Below, one piece after another: positions 48,583 to 54,220 of a stretch of DNA of 64,000 nucleotides (its first letter is position 1; each line of letters begins with the position of its first letter). The DNA comes from a phage: sequence record PZ534511.1; one strand, written 5' to 3'. Under the pieces are notes generated by a model, which had not been told where the DNA came from, ran no database searches, and saw only the letters and a program-made list of their open reading frames with translations. Made by a program: the position numbers and the translations under genes.

Positions 48583-48681
48583 GGTGCTAGGTGATGGAAT
48601 CGAACCACCTATGTATTCAACGACTACCTCGTCTATTTTCAGGATTAAAAATCCTCGCCCTTGCCAAAGGGCTTACCTAGC
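48583..48681 (-). tRNA. atypical tRNA-like gene (about 99 nt; identity unresolved, CCA not encoded)
   Basis: Perfect 7-bp acceptor (GCUAGGU/ACCUAGC), D-arm GCCC/GGGC, T-arm GGUGG-UUCGAUU-CCAUC, but about 47 nt between D- and T-arms containing AGGAUU-UUU-AAUCCU hairpin and a second GACGA-GGUAG-UCGUU hairpin. Confidence 0.45.
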
Positions 48682-50248: not shown

Positions 50249-50458
50249 TCAACAGATTCCGGCCTTATCTCGCCTGTCTGCGTATTCTTTAATCGCAACC
50301 TCCTCTGCATTGGTGACTAAATCTTCAAAGTAACTCTCAAGCTCCTCGTCAATGTCAGGAAACCAACTCTTTTTCCTGTCAGTGTGAATCGCAGACTTGT
50401 TGAATTTATTACAGTTCTTTGCTACCGGATTATTCATTAATAGCCCCTCAGCGTTCAT
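50249..50458 (-). CDS. hypothetical protein (69 aa)
   Basis: ORF track only. Confidence 0.3.
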   Translation of the reverse strand: MNAEGLLMNNPVAKNCNKFNKSAIHTDRKKSWFPDIDEELESYFEDLVTNAEEVAIKEYADRRDKAGIC

Positions 50459-51026
50459 AGTAAATCTTATTTAACATTACCTCATCCTTTGCAGAAAGAA
50501 TACCGAGATATGCATCACCGAACCTGCCTGCAACAACCTCTACATGATACATCACTTCGTTAATATCGTCAAGAGTGATAACTGGATGACCGTATCTCTC
50601 TGAGTATTGTCTCAGAGTGCGATGTAGGGAATCATCATCGTAGGCAGACTTTTTAATATCACAAACACGACGAATAGCCTTGATGTCGAAAAACCCTGTG
50701 CGATACCAACCAAGAAAAAGGTTTCGTGCAGTGTCAACACCTACATCAACACCGTCAAGAACCTTATCTACAAGATAGCTGTCATCCTTTGGACCTGCTT
50801 CCTTAGTTCGAATGTAGTTGCCATCTTTTCCAGGTGACAGCTCCTTCTCATCACCAACCTGAATGCCATCATTTGGCGGTGTTAACCACTTATCCGGATG
50901 CTTACGATCACGAGCGTTAGAATGATTACGCTGGAAACCTGGCTTCCACTTGAAAGTTTTCTCCATCTGTTCTTCATTCTGATAACGTTTTGCAATCTTT
51001 TCACGGTCATCTTTGCGTGGACTCAT
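50448..51026 (-). CDS. hypothetical protein (192 aa)
   Basis: ORF track; no recognisable motif. Confidence 0.35.
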   Translation of the reverse strand: MSPRKDDREKIAKRYQNEEQMEKTFKWKPGFQRNHSNARDRKHPDKWLTPPNDGIQVGDEKELSPGKDGNYIRTKEAGPKDDSYLVDKVLDGVDVGVDTARNLFLGWYRTGFFDIKAIRRVCDIKKSAYDDDSLHRTLRQYSERYGHPVITLDDINEVMYHVEVVAGRFGDAYLGILSAKDEVMLNKIYYER

Positions 51027-51530
51027 AGCTGCCTCCTCTTCAAGTTATAGAAAAACTCACTGTATCGCTTTGTAACGAGCTTTTCTATCAAACTGGTGCG
51101 ATTGCCTTACCTGATATAGTTTATATAGCTGTGGAGCGATTTAGGGGCCTTCTTGTCCGTTTCCACACATAAACTTCATCCAAGCTCGCGCGGGAGACTC
51201 TCAACCGACTCCTTCCGGCGCTGGCAAGCTTTCGTCGGTGGTCCACATCAGTGCTCGGCCTTTGGCCTGCGCTATCGCTTCGCTCCCACACATGTTAACA
51301 GACCTGCATGTATGCACTTCTGTTATTGTGTGCACCAGAGAGGCCCGGCATCTCGCCCCTCGTAGGCGAGTGCCAATGAAGGGCCGACACTACCAATAGT
51401 AAGTAATAAATTTAAAACATGGTACTTAGGATCTAATATATTCTACATAAGTTAAGTATATGTACTTAGTACCATAAGTACTAGATCTTTTGTTTTTTAT
51501 TATTTAGTTATTTTAGTTATATTCTTTATG

Positions 51531-51611
51531 TGTCCGTATCACGGACAGTTAGTGTCCGTATTACGGACAGATTTGTCCGCGTGACGGACAGTAGTGTCCG
51601 TATCACGGACA
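51531..51611. repeat. array of four phased 17-bp palindromic sites (TGTCCG-N5-CGGACA), putative operator/iteron array
   Basis: tgtccgtatcacggaca (51531-47), tgtccgtattacggaca (51553-69), tgtccgcgtgacggaca (51574-90), tgtccgtatcacggaca (51595-611); centre spacing 22/21/21 bp; flanked by AT-rich segment. Confidence 0.8.
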
Positions 51612-51686
51612 GTTACTAACCTCTGTTCCAGAGCGAACATAAAACATACGAATCCTTATAGTACAGATATTTAAGTTTTTACTGGT

Positions 51687-52037
51687 CTAACCAGTTGTTG
51701 ACATTCGAATAACTTCTTCTGGTGGCAAAACTTTGGAAAATGTGCATCTTTTACCTCTCCCTTGTGTGGATATTTCAACCACTCCCGCACATTCTAAAGT
51801 TTTAACGCACGCTGCTGCTTTTGTTTTCTTTATTCCAACATCTGCTGCAATTTTCCTTGTGCTGGGTGTGAAGCGTGAACTTCCTCCAAGCTTATACCAG
51901 TTGTGCAGGTAGCAGTATACGATCTTGTCATACAAGTCAAGAACAACAACCTCCCCAGTTGTGTCATTCAAAACTTTTGACATAGACAGTATTTCAAGGG
52001 GGACTTTAAGATATAGCAGCTTATCCCCATCTTTCAT
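51687..52037 (-). CDS. small helix-turn-helix DNA-binding protein (candidate binder of adjacent palindromes)
   Basis: 116 aa; HTH-like segment TRKIAADVGIKKTKAAACVKTLECAGVV; gene ends 76 bp from palindrome array. Confidence 0.4.
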   Translation of the reverse strand: MKDGDKLLYLKVPLEILSMSKVLNDTTGEVVVLDLYDKIVYCYLHNWYKLGGSSRFTPSTRKIAADVGIKKTKAAACVKTLECAGVVEISTQGRGKRCTFSKVLPPEEVIRMSTTG

Positions 52038-52084
52038 ATCTCCTGATTCTCCTTGTGTGGCAATTTTCTTTAAAATAGCAGGGA

Positions 52085-52639
52085 TTACTCCCCGCTGTCA
52101 ATAGCAAAACTCATTGCAATACGGTATGCCTCTTCTAATGGTAAGAGTCTCCCCCACACATCCCAACCGACATCAAACTGTCTGCCAAACAACTGTTGTG
52201 TGGTTCCGTGAGCATGACCGAACAGTTGGACTGATCCGTGAGGCTTTCTGTTCCACTTTGCAAACTGGTAATGGCTCATACAGATCAAATTCTTGTTGTG
52301 GCGAAGCTCGTAATAATCTACAACCTCATGACCGAACTCTTTCATAATTCTGACAGTCGTCCTTGTGTCATGGTTGCCACGAACAAGAATAATATGTCCG
52401 TTCAACATATTTAGAATATCTGGAAGTAAGTTGTTGATATTCTTATCATTAGTGCACGCAATATCTCCCAAGTGGAACACAGTGTCTGCAGGTGACACAA
52501 CAGAGTTCCATTCGGCGATGATTCCCGCATTCATACTGTCAAGATTGTGATCATACTGAGATCTGTGTTTTTGACATGAATCAAACTCCATGACCCGCTG
52601 GTGGAGAAAGTGTGTGTCGCTTGTTACAAAGTATTTCAT
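52085..52639 (-). CDS. calcineurin-like metallophosphoesterase (Ser/Thr phosphatase or 2',3'-phosphoesterase type)
   Basis: Motifs DTHF (D-x-H), HLGDIACTND (GD), VRGNHD (GNHD), GHAHG; start trimmed to ATG 52637-52639 with GAGGA RBS. Confidence 0.7.
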   Translation of the reverse strand: MKYFVTSDTHFLHQRVMEFDSCQKHRSQYDHNLDSMNAGIIAEWNSVVSPADTVFHLGDIACTNDKNINNLLPDILNMLNGHIILVRGNHDTRTTVRIMKEFGHEVVDYYELRHNKNLICMSHYQFAKWNRKPHGSVQLFGHAHGTTQQLFGRQFDVGWDVWGRLLPLEEAYRIAMSFAIDSGE

Positions 52640-52646
52640 ACATTCC

Positions 52647-53184
52647 TCATTTAAGTTTAATGCAGTTTTTAAGCTGGCGTTCCATACGATCCACAACCTT
52701 GTCTGGAACATCATGAATGCTTTTATTGCCGTGGCGGTTTTCAACCACGATCACGGTATAACTATACCCATGACTGATTGCCATGTCAACATATTCCTGC
52801 ACATGTTTTTCTTTTGTAAACGTATTACTTACCACGATACGGTCGTATCCCATACGCATCATATCTTCTACGTTATCTTTCGGTATAACTATACCCATGA
52901 CTGATTGCCATGTCAACATATTCCTGCACATGTTTTTCTTTTGTAAACGTATTACTTACCACGATACGGTCGTATCCCATACGCATCATATCTTCTACGT
53001 TATCTTTGCACCATTTCGCTGCGAGTGTTACTTTACTTGCATCCCAGTTGTAATTGCCGTCATCGTCATACCAGAACATGTCGTTCTCAAAATGTGGATA
53101 CAGACCCTCTAAAGATAGCGCATTTGCCAGTGTTGATTTGCCAGACCCTGGTAGACCACGCACGATATATAGCATTTTAGACAT
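52647..53184 (-). pseudogene. P-loop polynucleotide-kinase-like gene (T4 Pnk kinase-domain-like) disrupted by 127-bp tandem duplication
   Basis: Walker A GLPGSGKST after ATG 53182-53184 (GGAGG RBS); reading frame breaks at duplication junction, producing two overlapping ORFs (52873..53241 and 52647..52931) that both encode KDNVEDMMRMGYDRIVVSNTFTKEKHVQEYVDMAISHGYSYT. Confidence 0.6.
52754..53007. repeat. perfect tandem direct duplication, 2 x 127 bp
   Basis: 52754-52880 is identical to 52881-53007 (cggtataactatacccatgactgattgccatg...tcttctacgttatcttt), checked base by base; unit length not divisible by 3. Confidence 0.9.
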
Positions 53185-53212
53185 AGTGACCCTCCGTTTT
53201 AATTTCAACGAT

Positions 53213-53241
53213 AGTATACCTAACTGTTTTGTTAATTTCAA
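53213..53241 (-). promoter_or_regulatory. sigma70-like promoter for kinase/phosphoesterase genes
   Basis: Minus strand TTGAAA (plus 53236-53241), 17-nt spacer, TATACT (plus 53213-53218). Confidence 0.4.
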
Positions 53242-53244
53242 GTG

Positions 53245-53274
53245 TTGACACTAGGTTATTTGTGTGGCAGGATA
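53245..53274 (+). promoter_or_regulatory. candidate divergent promoter for RNA ligase operon
   Basis: TTGACA at 53245-53250; weak -10 candidates 17-18 nt downstream (caggat/aggata). Confidence 0.3.
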
Positions 53275-53302
53275 GACTGACAAAATGACAAATGAGGAAC
53301 GT

Positions 53303-54220
53303 ATGATGAAGTATTTTAATGCAGACGACCTAGTTGACAAAGGTCTTGTAACCAGTAGGTATTACCCAGATCTGGGGTTAAAGATCTATAAATATGCTAG
53401 AAAAGTATTTTACAACAATTTATGGTATTTGTCCCCTCGTTTACTGGAGTGCCGAGGCATTGTTGTAGGTAATGAAGGAAATGTTGTGGCATGGCCCTTC
53501 ACAAAAGTGTTTAACTTGGGAGAAAACTCCACCAACCTGCCTGACAATAAGCTTGTGACTGCGGTAGAGAAAAAGAACGGATTCCTTGGTGTGGTATCAT
53601 CTCATAAAGGTGACCTATTGTTCTCAACAACCGGGTCTCTTGATTCTCCATATTGTAACCTTGCAAAGGAAACCATCCAAGAGCAATGTGGTAATTTAGA
53701 TCTTATCAAGAAGGTTATGGGCAATGAAAACATGACATTCATGTTTGAAATTTGTCACCCTTCAGATCCGCATATTGTTCAAGAAGACCATGGCGCATAT
53801 TTGATAGGTTGCAGATATAATGATTCTGGAATAATGCTACCAGAAGCAGCTTTAGATGGGATTGCCAAATACCTTGGTGCAAAACGTCCTCTCACTGTGC
53901 GTGAAATCCCGTTCAGCTATGCAAAAGAATTAGCCGCAGAAACAAGGGGCGAAGGGTATATGATCCGTAAGCCTTACTACCCTTATGACCTGCAGCTGAA
54001 GATCAAGTCTCCATACTATTTGGCACGGAAGGCCGTAATGAGGGGTAAAGCTTGGAAGATTTGGGATGATGATATCTTTAAACGTATTGACGAAGAGTTT
54101 TACGGCATGGTAAACTTCATTCGTAGCAATTACACAGAAGATGTGTGGAACTGCCTCCTGGAGCAGGAACGCCGTGAGATACTTGATTGCTATTTTCACA
54201 ACGAGGACTATATGCAATGA
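53303..54220 (+). CDS. RNA ligase, T4 Rnl1 (RnlA)-like
   Basis: Recalled alignment to T4 Rnl1: LLECRGIVV ~ ALECRGIMF, TKVFNLGEN ~ EKFFNLNEN, nucleotidyltransferase motif I EKKNGF ~ TKEDGS; start set at ATG after GAGGA RBS (track start 53285). Confidence 0.7.
   Translation: MMKYFNADDLVDKGLVTSRYYPDLGLKIYKYARKVFYNNLWYLSPRLLECRGIVVGNEGNVVAWPFTKVFNLGENSTNLPDNKLVTAVEKKNGFLGVVSSHKGDLLFSTTGSLDSPYCNLAKETIQEQCGNLDLIKKVMGNENMTFMFEICHPSDPHIVQEDHGAYLIGCRYNDSGIMLPEAALDGIAKYLGAKRPLTVREIPFSYAKELAAETRGEGYMIRKPYYPYDLQLKIKSPYYLARKAVMRGKAWKIWDDDIFKRIDEEFYGMVNFIRSNYTEDVWNCLLEQERREILDCYFHNEDYMQ

What the first reader, a model, noticed from the sequence alone, without database searches (positions are those of the whole stretch)
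51400..52037. Four helically phased 17-bp palindromes next to a small HTH protein: candidate operator array or replication iterons
TGTCCG-N5-CGGACA occurs four times with 21-22 bp centre-to-centre spacing (51531..51611), adjacent to an AT-rich tract with further short inverted repeats (51400..51530) and immediately downstream of a 116-aa HTH protein gene (51687..52037). A TGTCCGT half-site also occurs at 51153..51159. This architecture fits cooperative binding of a dimeric regulator, or an origin/partition site with its binding protein.
Basis: seen in the sequence. Interest (0 to 1): 0.6.

Follow-up and report, generated by a model that had tools for sequence, protein, structure and literature searches.

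The report
Likely replication origin of rV5-like phages
Four evenly spaced copies of a 17-bp palindrome, next to the easiest-to-melt DNA in the genome and just after the gene for a small DNA-binding protein, are most likely the so far undescribed replication origin of the rV5-like E. coli phages, built like the origin of phage lambda.

Summary
TGTCCG-N5-CGGACA occurs exactly four times (51531-51611, spacing 22/21/21 bp; none in 100 shuffles) and nowhere else in this genome. The window is a Vequintavirus (rV5-like myophage of E. coli).

The array starts 75 bp after the stop codon of a 116-aa winged-helix protein (rV5 gp075). It abuts a 130-bp tract of about 20% GC that is the least stable duplex in the genome.

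Within the genus:
- The half-sites are almost invariant, while the 5-bp centre varies freely.
- The copy number is 2, 3, 4 or 6, always in whole phased units.

Tandem arrays of the same palindrome occur in 8 unrelated viral contigs. Each lies inside a gene with an N-terminal winged-helix domain. Four of six tested genes match 'replication initiation / O-like' families, and in 7 of 8 an AT-rich patch follows the array. That is the phage lambda O / ori-lambda layout.

Best reading (about 0.6): an iteron-type origin with a minimal stand-alone initiator. The main rival (about 0.2) is a purely transcriptional operator or roadblock.

No binding or replication has been shown. This is a new member of a known kind, of moderate interest: the rV5 genome paper looked for the origin and did not find it.

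The parts
52072..52101 (-). Sigma-70-type promoter of the gp075 gene: TTGACA, 18-bp spacer, TATTTT, with an extended -10 TG
   Evidence: Consensus scan, 10 of 12 matches with TG. The rV5 record annotates the same place as promoter 'P76'. No terminator-like site lies between it and the array.
51687..52037 (-). Gene for the 116-aa winged-helix protein (rV5 gp075); proposed origin-binding initiator
51612..51686 (.). Unconstrained spacer between the stop codon and the first palindrome
   Evidence: This is the least conserved segment of the locus: 78.7% identity to the most distant genus member, against 95.1% for the array (alignment).
51595..51611 (.). Iteron 1 (nearest the gene): TGTCCGTATCACGGACA
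   Evidence: Exact match. Half-sites conserved in 36 units from 10 distinct arrays.
51574..51590 (.). Iteron 2: TGTCCGCGTGACGGACA
51553..51569 (.). Iteron 3: TGTCCGTATTACGGACA. In most relatives one arm reads TGCCCG.
51531..51547 (.). Iteron 4 (abuts the AT-rich tract): TGTCCGTATCACGGACA
51399..51530 (.). AT-rich tract, proposed DNA unwinding element. It carries three GTACTTA heptamers (51422, 51462 on +; 51475-51481 on -) and the inverted repeat 51419-51429 / 51465-51475.
   Evidence: About 20% GC. Least stable duplex of the window (z up to +5.95) and of the whole composite genome. 93.9-98.5% identical across the genus. Heptamer cluster. Inverted repeat.
51440..51447 (-). Possible extended -10 promoter element (TGTAGAAT on the minus strand) inside the AT tract, reading toward the GC-rich element. 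Speculative.
   Evidence: Seen by eye in the sequence. Not found by the consensus scan, which needs a -35 match. Conserved, but so is the whole tract.
51125..51394 (-). Highly conserved GC-rich non-coding element flanking the AT tract. Whether it belongs to the origin is open: it could be a GC-rich flank, a primer or R-loop RNA, or an unrelated structured RNA.
   Evidence: Most GC-rich 200-270 bp of the window. Nearly invariant core. No codon periodicity among its 47 variable columns. RNAalifold fold has only 1 compensatory pair. No Rfam match.

Best explanation
This is the replication origin, or one origin, of Vequintavirus phages, built on the phage lambda plan.

Proposed steps, all inferred unless marked:
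1. The early sigma-70 promoter at 52101..52072 drives the gene for the 116-aa winged-helix protein (rV5 gp075).
2. The protein binds as dimers to the four 17-bp dyad-symmetric iterons (core C-TG(T/C)CCG-N5-CGGACA-C). The iterons are spaced two helical turns apart, so all dimers sit on one face of the DNA.
3. The resulting nucleoprotein complex stresses the adjoining 130-bp AT-rich tract (51399-51530), which melts.
4. The phage's own T7-like primase-helicase and family-A DNA polymerase then start synthesis.
5. Early transcription from the gp075 promoter runs through the array and the AT tract, and may help activate the origin as pR transcription does at ori-lambda.

Shown here: the sequence anatomy, its conservation pattern, its uniqueness in the genome, the winged-helix fold, and the occurrence of the same palindrome array inside initiator-type genes of other phages.

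Not shown: that gp075 is the binder, that binding leads to unwinding, and that replication starts here.
For: **Anatomy**
- Four exact phased palindromes, none expected by chance.
- They directly abut the least stable duplex of the window and of the genome.

**Uniqueness**
- No other site with 1 mismatch or fewer exists in the window or in the remaining 74 kb of the 98-99.6% identical genome OR062943.1.
- Only 3 two-mismatch sites occur there, about the chance level.
- A regulon operator would be expected at several promoters.

**Conservation across 36 units in 10 distinct arrays**
- 11 of 12 half-site positions are invariant.
- 4 of 5 central positions vary.
- Against the most distant genus member, the array (95%) and AT tract (94%) are better conserved than the gp075 gene (87%) and the spacer (79%).

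**Copy number**
- The genus has 2, 3, 4 or 6 copies, always whole 21-22-bp units.
- This parallels lambda (4 iterons), Stx phages (6), and the two iterons plus AT-rich region reported as the minimal unwinding fragment (PMC7466680).

**The same palindrome elsewhere**
- An exact-pattern scan of IMG/VR found 8 unrelated contigs with 2-7 copies at 20-25-bp spacing.
- All 8 arrays lie inside a 284-419-aa ORF with an N-terminal winged-helix-like region.
- 4 of 6 tested ORFs match PHROGs named 'replication initiation' or 'O-like'.
- In 7 of 8, the lowest-GC 60 bp within about 500 bp lies immediately downstream of the array in the sense of that gene. This matches the polarity in lambda and in this window.
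- A Treponema MAG has 3 copies inside an HTH_36 protein gene. A Planctomycetota MAG has the array 400 bp upstream of a Prim-Pol/DnaB_C gene.

**The protein**
- Winged-helix fold.
- Its own PHROG is named 'replication initiation protein', and it has weak hits to other initiator PHROGs.
- Its only distant relatives (25-35% identity) are HTH_36/DUF6945 proteins.
- The four homologue loci examined (from three homologues) are phage-like. One carries PolA and a gp4-like primase-helicase, and another carries PNK and RNA ligase.
- Different phased repeats next to AT-rich tracts lie near their genes.

**Position in the genome**
- The array is about 1.7 kb from the divergence point of the two long transcription units and from the cumulative GC-skew minimum.
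- Forks leaving it would run co-directionally with nearly all transcription. This is consistent with an origin but is not independent evidence.
Against: - There is no experimental evidence of binding, unwinding or initiation.
- The protein has only a DNA-binding domain. It lacks a lambda-O-like C-terminal domain to recruit a helicase, and lacks the acidic F-ending tail that its distant homologues carry.
- It does not reach the Pfam cut-offs for HTH_36 or DUF6945. It has no hit to Phage_rep_O, Rep_3 or RepA_N.
- The fold is generic. LexA, MarR, CodY and TFE-type regulators score about as well as RepA_N, DnaD or DnaB N-domains.
- A profile comparison between the gp075 family and the N-domains of the array-bearing ORFs aligns only the HTH (32 columns, probability 69%). 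The shared palindrome may therefore be coincidence or convergence.
- In bacterial genomes, two-copy versions of the palindrome also occur in ordinary intergenic settings. One lies upstream of an ABC transporter gene in L037.
- The 'replication initiation protein' name in PHROGs and RefSeq is an annotation, not a tested function.
- GC skew here is confounded with transcription direction, as the rV5 paper notes.
Confidence: 0.6

Rival explanations
1. The array is a purely transcriptional element. gp075 is a regulator that coats the four palindromes. It would either block RNA polymerase reading on from the early promoters into the downstream genes (GC-rich element, tRNAs, late structural genes), or control a promoter in the AT-rich tract. 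Either way it would time the early-to-late switch.
For: - The fold is as close to LexA, MarR and CodY-type repressors as to initiators.
- GenBank submitters often call the protein a 'putative transcriptional regulator'.
- The array lies on the path of early transcription, with no terminator before it.
- It sits at the head of the long leftward unit that ends in the late genes.
- A two-copy version of the palindrome sits in a typical operator position in a bacterial genome, L037.
- A possible extended -10 element lies about 90 bp downstream (seen by eye).
Against: - No promoter-like site overlaps or adjoins the array.
- The array is not at gp075's own promoter.
- Sites are absent from the rest of the genome.
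- This reading does not explain the extreme, conserved AT tract touching the array.
- It does not explain why arrays of three or more copies of this palindrome in other phages sit inside initiator-type genes followed by AT-rich patches.
- Initiators often regulate transcription too, so this rival is not exclusive of the origin reading.
Confidence: 0.2
2. The array acts at the RNA level. The palindromes would form stable hairpins in the 3' untranslated region of the gp075 mRNA, and work as a stabiliser, processing site or attenuator without any protein binding to DNA.
For: Either strand of 51525-51620 folds to about -48 to -49 kcal/mol, against shuffles at -22 to -25 (z -7.7 to -8.4). The array is transcribed as part of the early unit.
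Against: - The strong fold follows trivially from the palindromes.
- In 9 of 36 units the T-to-C change in one arm is not compensated. It gives a C-A mismatch in the sense RNA.
- Positions outside the stem (the flanking C on each side, the central A) are invariant, and the 21-22-bp phasing is kept through copy-number changes. A hairpin role would not require any of this.
- No T-run follows, so these are not intrinsic terminators.
- The same arrays lie in coding sequence in other phages.
Confidence: 0.07
3. The array is a packaging (pac) recognition site or a partition (centromere-like) site, bound by the small HTH protein.
For: Repeated phased binding sites next to a small DNA-binding protein gene are also typical of terminase small-subunit sites and of ParR/ParB centromeres (general knowledge).
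Against: - The neighbours are a phosphoesterase, a PNK-like kinase and an RNA ligase.
- No terminase or ParA/ParB-type gene is annotated in the flanking 6-8 kb.
- Vequintaviruses are virulent phages with no known plasmid prophage state (general knowledge, not tested here).
- The gp075 family's weak relatives are initiator-type PHROGs, not terminase or partition families.
Confidence: 0.03

Closest known systems
Phage lambda origin (ori-lambda) with the O initiator, and its Stx-phage variants
   Same: - Four tandem iterons (six in Stx phages), each an imperfect inverted repeat of similar size (19 bp in lambda, 17 bp here), bound by O dimers.
- An AT-rich region on one side only.
- The same order along the initiator's coding strand: DNA-binding domain, then iterons, then AT-rich tract.
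- An early transcript runs through the origin.
- Two iterons plus the AT tract are the reported minimum, which matches the 2-6 copies seen in this genus (PMC7466680).
   Different: - Here the iterons lie 75 bp after the stop codon, not inside the gene.
- The protein is 116 aa, a winged-helix domain only, with no C-terminal P-binding domain.
- It has no Pfam Phage_rep_O match.
- The phage is a 137-kb virulent myovirus with its own gp4-like primase-helicase and PolA. It is not a temperate phage that borrows host DnaB.
- A long, highly conserved GC-rich element follows the AT tract.
Uncultivated-phage initiator genes with internal TGTCCG-N5-CGGACA arrays (IMG/VR contigs L010-L017; Treponema MAG L033)
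   Same: - Identical half-sites.
- 20-25-bp phasing, 2-7 copies.
- An AT-rich patch immediately downstream.
- An N-terminal winged-helix domain encoded just upstream.
   Different: - The arrays are embedded in a 284-419-aa ORF with a C-terminal domain.
- The hosts are mostly high-GC.
- The N-domains are related to gp075 only at the level of the HTH (hhalign probability 69%).
- None has been studied experimentally, as far as the searches here could tell.
Iteron-type plasmid origins with winged-helix Rep proteins (Rep_3 family such as RepE, pi and TrfA; RepA_N family such as pSK41 RepA)
   Same: - The initiator gene lies next to, or around, 21-23-bp phased repeats.
- There is an AT-rich unwinding element. 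From general knowledge, a GC-rich flank often follows it.
- The DNA-binding domain is a winged helix. RepA_N N-domains 4PQL, 5KBJ and 4PTA are among the structural matches.
   Different: - Plasmid iterons are usually asymmetric and bound by monomers. Here each unit is a dyad.
- There is no Pfam Rep_3 or RepA_N match.
- There are no DnaA boxes.
- The structural similarity is no better than to many repressors.
Transcript-primed phage origins (T7 primary origin; T4 oriF and oriG)
   Same: A replisome of the T7 type. An AT-rich tract lies downstream of a promoter. A GC-rich transcribed stretch lies beside it that could hold an RNA-DNA hybrid. All of this is inference from general knowledge.
   Different: Those origins have no iteron array and no dedicated origin-binding protein. 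A promoter inside the AT tract is only a by-eye candidate here.

Membership tests
Lambda-type (O-some) origin | Tandem dyad-symmetric iterons, phased by about two helical turns | tested here: met
   Four exact 17-bp palindromes with 22/21/21-bp spacing. The phasing is kept in relatives with 2-6 copies.
Lambda-type (O-some) origin | An AT-rich unwinding region directly flanking the iterons on one side | tested here: met
   51399-51530 has about 20% GC and is the least stable duplex genome-wide. Actual unwinding was not tested.
Lambda-type (O-some) origin | Origin located inside the initiator gene, between its two domains | tested here: not met
   The array starts 75 bp after the stop codon of the 116-aa ORF.
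Lambda-type (O-some) origin | Initiator has a C-terminal domain that recruits the helicase loader (lambda P) | tested here: not met
   The protein ends about 13 residues after the wing of the winged helix. No P-like gene was recognised nearby.
Lambda-type (O-some) origin | Initiator dimers bind the iterons and destabilise the AT-rich region | not testable with these tools
   Needs EMSA or footprinting, plus KMnO4 or P1 nuclease probing.
Pfam Phage_rep_O (lambda O N-terminal domain) | Score at or above the family's gathering threshold | tested here: not met
   No hit, even at E up to 1.
Pfam HTH_36 (PF13730) | Score at or above the gathering threshold (25 bits) | tested here: inconclusive
   22.8 bits, E 8.2e-5, for the window protein. 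Close cluster representatives P0001 and P0003 carry a precomputed PF13730 hit. Distant homologues pass with 31-33 bits.
Pfam DUF6945 (PF22182) / PDB 4RO3 | Score at or above the gathering threshold (28 bits); same fold | tested here: inconclusive
PHROG 12838 'replication initiation protein' | Full-length match to the family profile | tested here: met
   E 8.5e-80 over residues 1-116 of 116. The family is essentially this genus's own protein. Its name is an annotation, not a tested function.
Iteron-plasmid initiators (Pfam Rep_3, RepA_N) | Sequence match to the family; asymmetric iterons bound by monomers | tested here: not met
   No Pfam hit. The units are dyads. RepA_N N-domains appear only as mid-ranking structural matches.
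Transcriptional operator | Binding sites overlap or adjoin a promoter, and are often present at several promoters | tested here: not met
   No sigma-70-like site lies within 51027-51700. The array is unique in the genome. The test is limited because phage-specific promoters are not covered by the scan.
Intrinsic terminator | A GC-rich hairpin followed by a T-run | tested here: not met
   Zero terminator-like sites in 50800-53400. No T-run follows any palindrome.

The most novel reading that the evidence does not exclude
The array may be a stripped-down O-some. In this reading a 116-aa protein that is nothing but a winged helix assembles on four dyad iterons and opens the adjoining AT tract. 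It would not recruit any host helicase loader. Instead it would hand over directly to a T7-like primase-helicase. The adjoining, almost invariant 270-bp GC-rich element would be transcribed from a promoter inside the AT tract, giving a structured RNA or R-loop that primes or licenses initiation. That would be a hybrid of the lambda (iteron) and T4/T7/ColE1 (transcript-primed) modes of initiation in a single origin.
Probability: 0.15. Interest if true: 0.7.

Novelty: new member of a known kind. Interest (0 to 1): 0.45.

Why it matters
rV5-like phages (Vequintavirus) are among the most often isolated E. coli phages and are used for O157 typing, biocontrol and therapy cocktails. Their replication origin is unknown. 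The rV5 genome paper tried to place it by skew analysis and found only transcription-linked shifts (PMC3606486). I found no later description in the searchable literature.

A concrete, testable 300-bp candidate with its likely binding protein would make several things possible:
- origin mapping;
- construction of phage-dependent replicons and reporter or engineering vectors;
- study of how an iteron-binding protein without a helicase-recruiting domain cooperates with a T7-type replisome.

The natural 2-, 3-, 4- and 6-copy variants are ready-made material for testing how iteron number matters. The finding also shows that the TGTCCG-N5-CGGACA iteron recurs in initiator genes of unrelated uncultivated phages.

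Tried and rejected
- **First AF2 model.** Built from 5 near-identical sequences, it was unusable (pLDDT 44.9). It was replaced by a model from a 16-sequence alignment.
- **Rfam.** Gathering and E-value modes found nothing credible in 50900-51800. The rli43 hit at 22.7 bits, against a threshold of 100, is noise.
- **More genus members.** An IMG/VR search for relatives of gp075 found none. tblastn in GenBank phages finds the protein only in the 119 Vequintavirus records.
- **Breadth of the family.** An exhaustive HMMER search of 1.84 billion representatives gave only 14 hits at E 0.001 or better. The family is very narrow.
- **DnaA boxes.** None in the region.
- **Extra half-site at 51154.** Chance, and not conserved.
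- **Homology to the array-bearing initiators.** I tried to show that gp075 and the N-domains of those initiator genes are homologous. Only the HTH aligns, so I do not claim a common family.
- **Helicase-loader neighbours.** I looked for them next to the array-bearing genes in the IMG/VR contigs. PHROGs gave nothing useful except a recombinase and a PAPS reductase.
- **Bacterial genomes.** The scan gave mostly two-copy sites in mixed contexts. It both supports the reading (L033, L039) and cautions against it (L037).
- **GC-rich element as coding sequence or decayed initiator C-domain.** Rejected as coding, because there is no codon periodicity. Its RNA structure remains unproven, with 1 compensatory pair.
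- **Partition, packaging and terminator readings.** Considered and set aside for lack of any supporting feature.

Full report
**What the window is.** The region 51000-52800 is 96-99.6% identical to 118 of 119 matching GenBank phage records. All are rV5-like myophages of E. coli, genus Vequintavirus, about 137 kb. The annotated neighbours are the same in phages inoa, APCEc02 and rV5. On the minus strand they run PNK-like kinase, phosphoesterase, the 116-aa protein, a 660-bp gap, and then a gene of unknown function. A tRNA cluster lies further left.

- TGTCCG-N5-CGGACA occurs exactly four times, at 51531, 51553, 51574 and 51595, with spacing 22/21/21 bp.
- No shuffle of the window gave a single exact match.
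- The adjoining tract 51399-51530 has about 20% GC. It is the least stable duplex in the window (z up to +5.95).
- It stays the least stable when the other 74 kb of the nearly identical genome OR062943.1 is added.
- The tract contains an 11-bp inverted repeat and three of the window's five GTACTTA heptamers.

**The array is unique in the genome.** No other site with 1 mismatch or fewer exists in the window or in the rest of OR062943.1. That record covers all of the remaining genome except about 0.4 kb. The three two-mismatch sites are at about the chance level. The 541-bp module occurs once per genome in all 119 records.

**The conservation pattern points to a protein-binding site.** I compared 36 units from 10 distinct arrays.
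- 11 of 12 half-site positions are invariant. So are one flanking C on each side and the central A.
- The other four central positions vary freely.
- The one variable arm position (T or C) is not compensated in the partner arm.
- Against the most divergent genus member, identity is 95% for the array, 94% for the AT tract, 87% for the gp075 gene and 79% for the 75-bp spacer between the gene and the array.

This is what binding of a dimer to two 6-bp arms predicts. It argues against a role as RNA hairpins, although the array would fold strongly if it were single-stranded.

**Copy number varies in whole units.** Phage YN3 has 2 copies, CarlMeissner 3, most members 4, and O157 typing phage 14 has 6. 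The phasing is always preserved. Several Logan contigs break inside the array, as expected for a repeat. Lambda has 4 iterons and Stx phages have 6. Two iterons plus the AT-rich region are reported as the minimal unwinding fragment (PMC7466680).

**The protein.**
- The 116-aa product (rV5 gp075) has its own sigma-70-type promoter with an extended -10 ('P76' in the rV5 record).
- It matches PHROG 12838 ('replication initiation protein', essentially this genus's own family). It matches other initiator PHROGs weakly.
- It falls just below the Pfam cut-offs for HTH_36 and DUF6945, and has no hit to Phage_rep_O, Rep_3 or RepA_N.
- It is very isolated. There are five clusters at 85% identity or more in a 5.8-billion-protein index, and only 14 hits in an exhaustive profile search of 1.84 billion representatives.
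- The credible distant relatives (25-35% identity) are HTH_36/DUF6945 proteins of 113-217 aa.
- Five of the eight relatives inspected have acidic C-terminal tails ending in F. This resembles the SSB and T7 gp2.5/gp4 tails (my knowledge). gp075 lacks such a tail.
- Three of these homologues were traced to four phage-like loci. One carries PolA and a gp4-like primase-helicase, and another carries PNK and RNA ligase.
- Near these genes lie different phased repeats beside AT-rich tracts. L027 has CGACTT-N9-AAGTCG at 23-bp spacing. L024 and L025 have AGGTAC repeats at 22 bp.
- With the deeper alignment, AlphaFold gives a winged helix (pLDDT 75.9).
- After that come many winged-helix regulators, with RepA_N, DnaD and DnaB N-domains among them.
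- The fold confirms a DNA-binding winged helix but does not tell an initiator from a repressor.

**The same palindrome elsewhere.** An exact-pattern scan of 2.9 million IMG/VR contigs returned 8 contigs. They share no other similarity with the window.
- Each has 2-7 copies of TGTCCG-N5-CGGACA at 20-25-bp spacing.
- In all 8 the array lies inside a 284-419-aa ORF that begins with a winged-helix-like region. The repeats encode a repetitive linker.
- 4 of 6 tested ORFs match PHROGs named 'replication initiation protein' or 'replication initiation O-like'. One resembles a cyanophage 'replication initiation protein'.
- In 7 of 8, the lowest-GC 60 bp within about 500 bp lies immediately after the array in the sense of the gene.

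That is the ori-lambda arrangement: the origin sits inside the O gene, with iterons followed by an AT-rich tract. It is also the polarity in this window: gp075 gene, iterons, AT tract.

A scan of one genome per bacterial species gave 14 loci, mostly with only two copies.
- In support: three copies inside an HTH_36 gene (L033), and an array 400 bp upstream of a Prim-Pol/DnaB_C gene (L039).
- As a caution: two copies in a plain intergenic, operator-like position (L037).

A profile comparison of the gp075 family with the N-domains of the array-bearing ORFs aligns only the HTH (probability 69%). I therefore treat the shared motif as a parallel and not as proof of common descent.

**Best explanation.** The locus is most likely an iteron-type origin of the lambda kind. 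Its initiator is a minimal stand-alone winged helix, and the origin lies just outside the gene instead of inside it.
- Early transcription from the gp075 promoter passes through the array and the AT tract with no terminator in between. This recalls transcriptional activation of ori-lambda.
- The phage supplies its own primase-helicase and PolA, so a helicase-loader-recruiting domain may not be needed. How the hand-over happens is unknown.
- The array lies about 1.7 kb from the divergence point of the two long transcription units and from the cumulative GC-skew minimum. That fits an origin but is confounded with transcription, as the rV5 authors noted.

**Rivals.**
- **A purely transcriptional operator or roadblock** is the main alternative. 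The fold and the position at the head of the leftward unit allow it. No promoter overlaps the array, the site is unique, and this reading leaves the AT tract and the cross-phage parallel unexplained. Initiators often also regulate, so the two readings may coexist.
- **An RNA-level role** is disfavoured by the uncompensated arm change and by the invariant non-stem positions.
- **Packaging or partition** has no supporting feature.

**Novelty.** The protein already carries the database label 'replication initiation protein' in RefSeq and PHROGs. I found no description of the array, or of a Vequintavirus origin, in the searchable literature. Some GenBank records mark the array only as an unexplained 'repeat_region'. 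It is a new member of a known kind, the iteron origins. Its unusual features are a minimal initiator, a virulent large myovirus and a T7-type replisome. All functional steps remain inferred.

Noticed in passing
window 51125-51394 (minus strand sense): This is the most GC-rich stretch of the window (57-60% GC), and it sits right next to the most AT-rich one. It is non-coding: its 47 variable columns are spread evenly over the three codon phases. Its core is almost invariant across the genus. RNAalifold gives a multi-helix fold with one compensatory pair, and Rfam has no match. rV5 and the BASEL phages annotate small ORFs here that are probably spurious. It could be a structured RNA, a primer or R-loop element, or the GC-rich flank of the origin.
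   Followed up: partly
window 52754-53007: A perfect 127-bp tandem duplication (52754-52880 and 52881-53007) lies inside the PNK-like AAA_33 kinase gene. Relatives have a single 136-aa ORF; here it is split into two overlapping ORFs (52647..52931 and 52873..53241). Because 127 is not a multiple of 3, the gene is disrupted, unless this is an assembly artefact. The duplication also duplicates a strong promoter-like site (TTGACA-17-TATAGT).
   Followed up: partly
window 48583-48681 (minus strand): Within the cluster of seven tRNA genes, ARAGORN reports a 99-nt 'tRNA-???' with a four-base anticodon (atcc). Rfam scores it as tRNA at only 35.5 bits. GenBank records call it tRNA-OTHER or omit it. It could be a frameshift-suppressor-like tRNA, an intron-bearing tRNA or a degenerate one.
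   Followed up: no
GenBank records MG0656xx: Eighteen records named 'Campylobacter phage', with host Campylobacter jejuni, are 96-98% identical to this E. coli Vequintavirus locus. This suggests mislabelled or contaminating coliphages in that data set.
   Followed up: no
proteins P0010, P0016, P0017, P0018: Distant homologues of gp075 end in acidic tails finishing with F (DEAPF, DPDAPF, EENPPF, DGENF). This is like the partner-binding tails of SSB and of T7 gp2.5 and gp4. gp075 itself lacks such a tail.
   Followed up: no
L027 1220-1480; L024 and L025 4240-4530: Other phage contigs that encode distant gp075 homologues have their own phased repeats beside AT-rich tracts upstream of the gene. 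L027 has CGACTT-N9-AAGTCG at 23-bp spacing. L024 and L025 have AGGTAC-containing repeats at 22 bp. These may be the cognate sites of those proteins.
   Followed up: partly
L037 1189-1227 (Trueperaceae MAG): Two tandem TGTCCG-N5-CGGACA palindromes lie between a toxin-antitoxin operon and an ABC-transporter ATPase gene, in an ordinary operator-like setting. The palindrome alone is therefore not diagnostic of an origin.
   Followed up: partly
window 51047-51088: A 12-bp inverted repeat (ATAGAAAAACTC / GAGCTTTTCTAT) with an 18-nt loop lies just upstream of the ribosome-binding site of the gene at 50448..51026. It is conserved in the genus. It might end the GC-rich transcript or regulate the downstream gene.
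   Followed up: no
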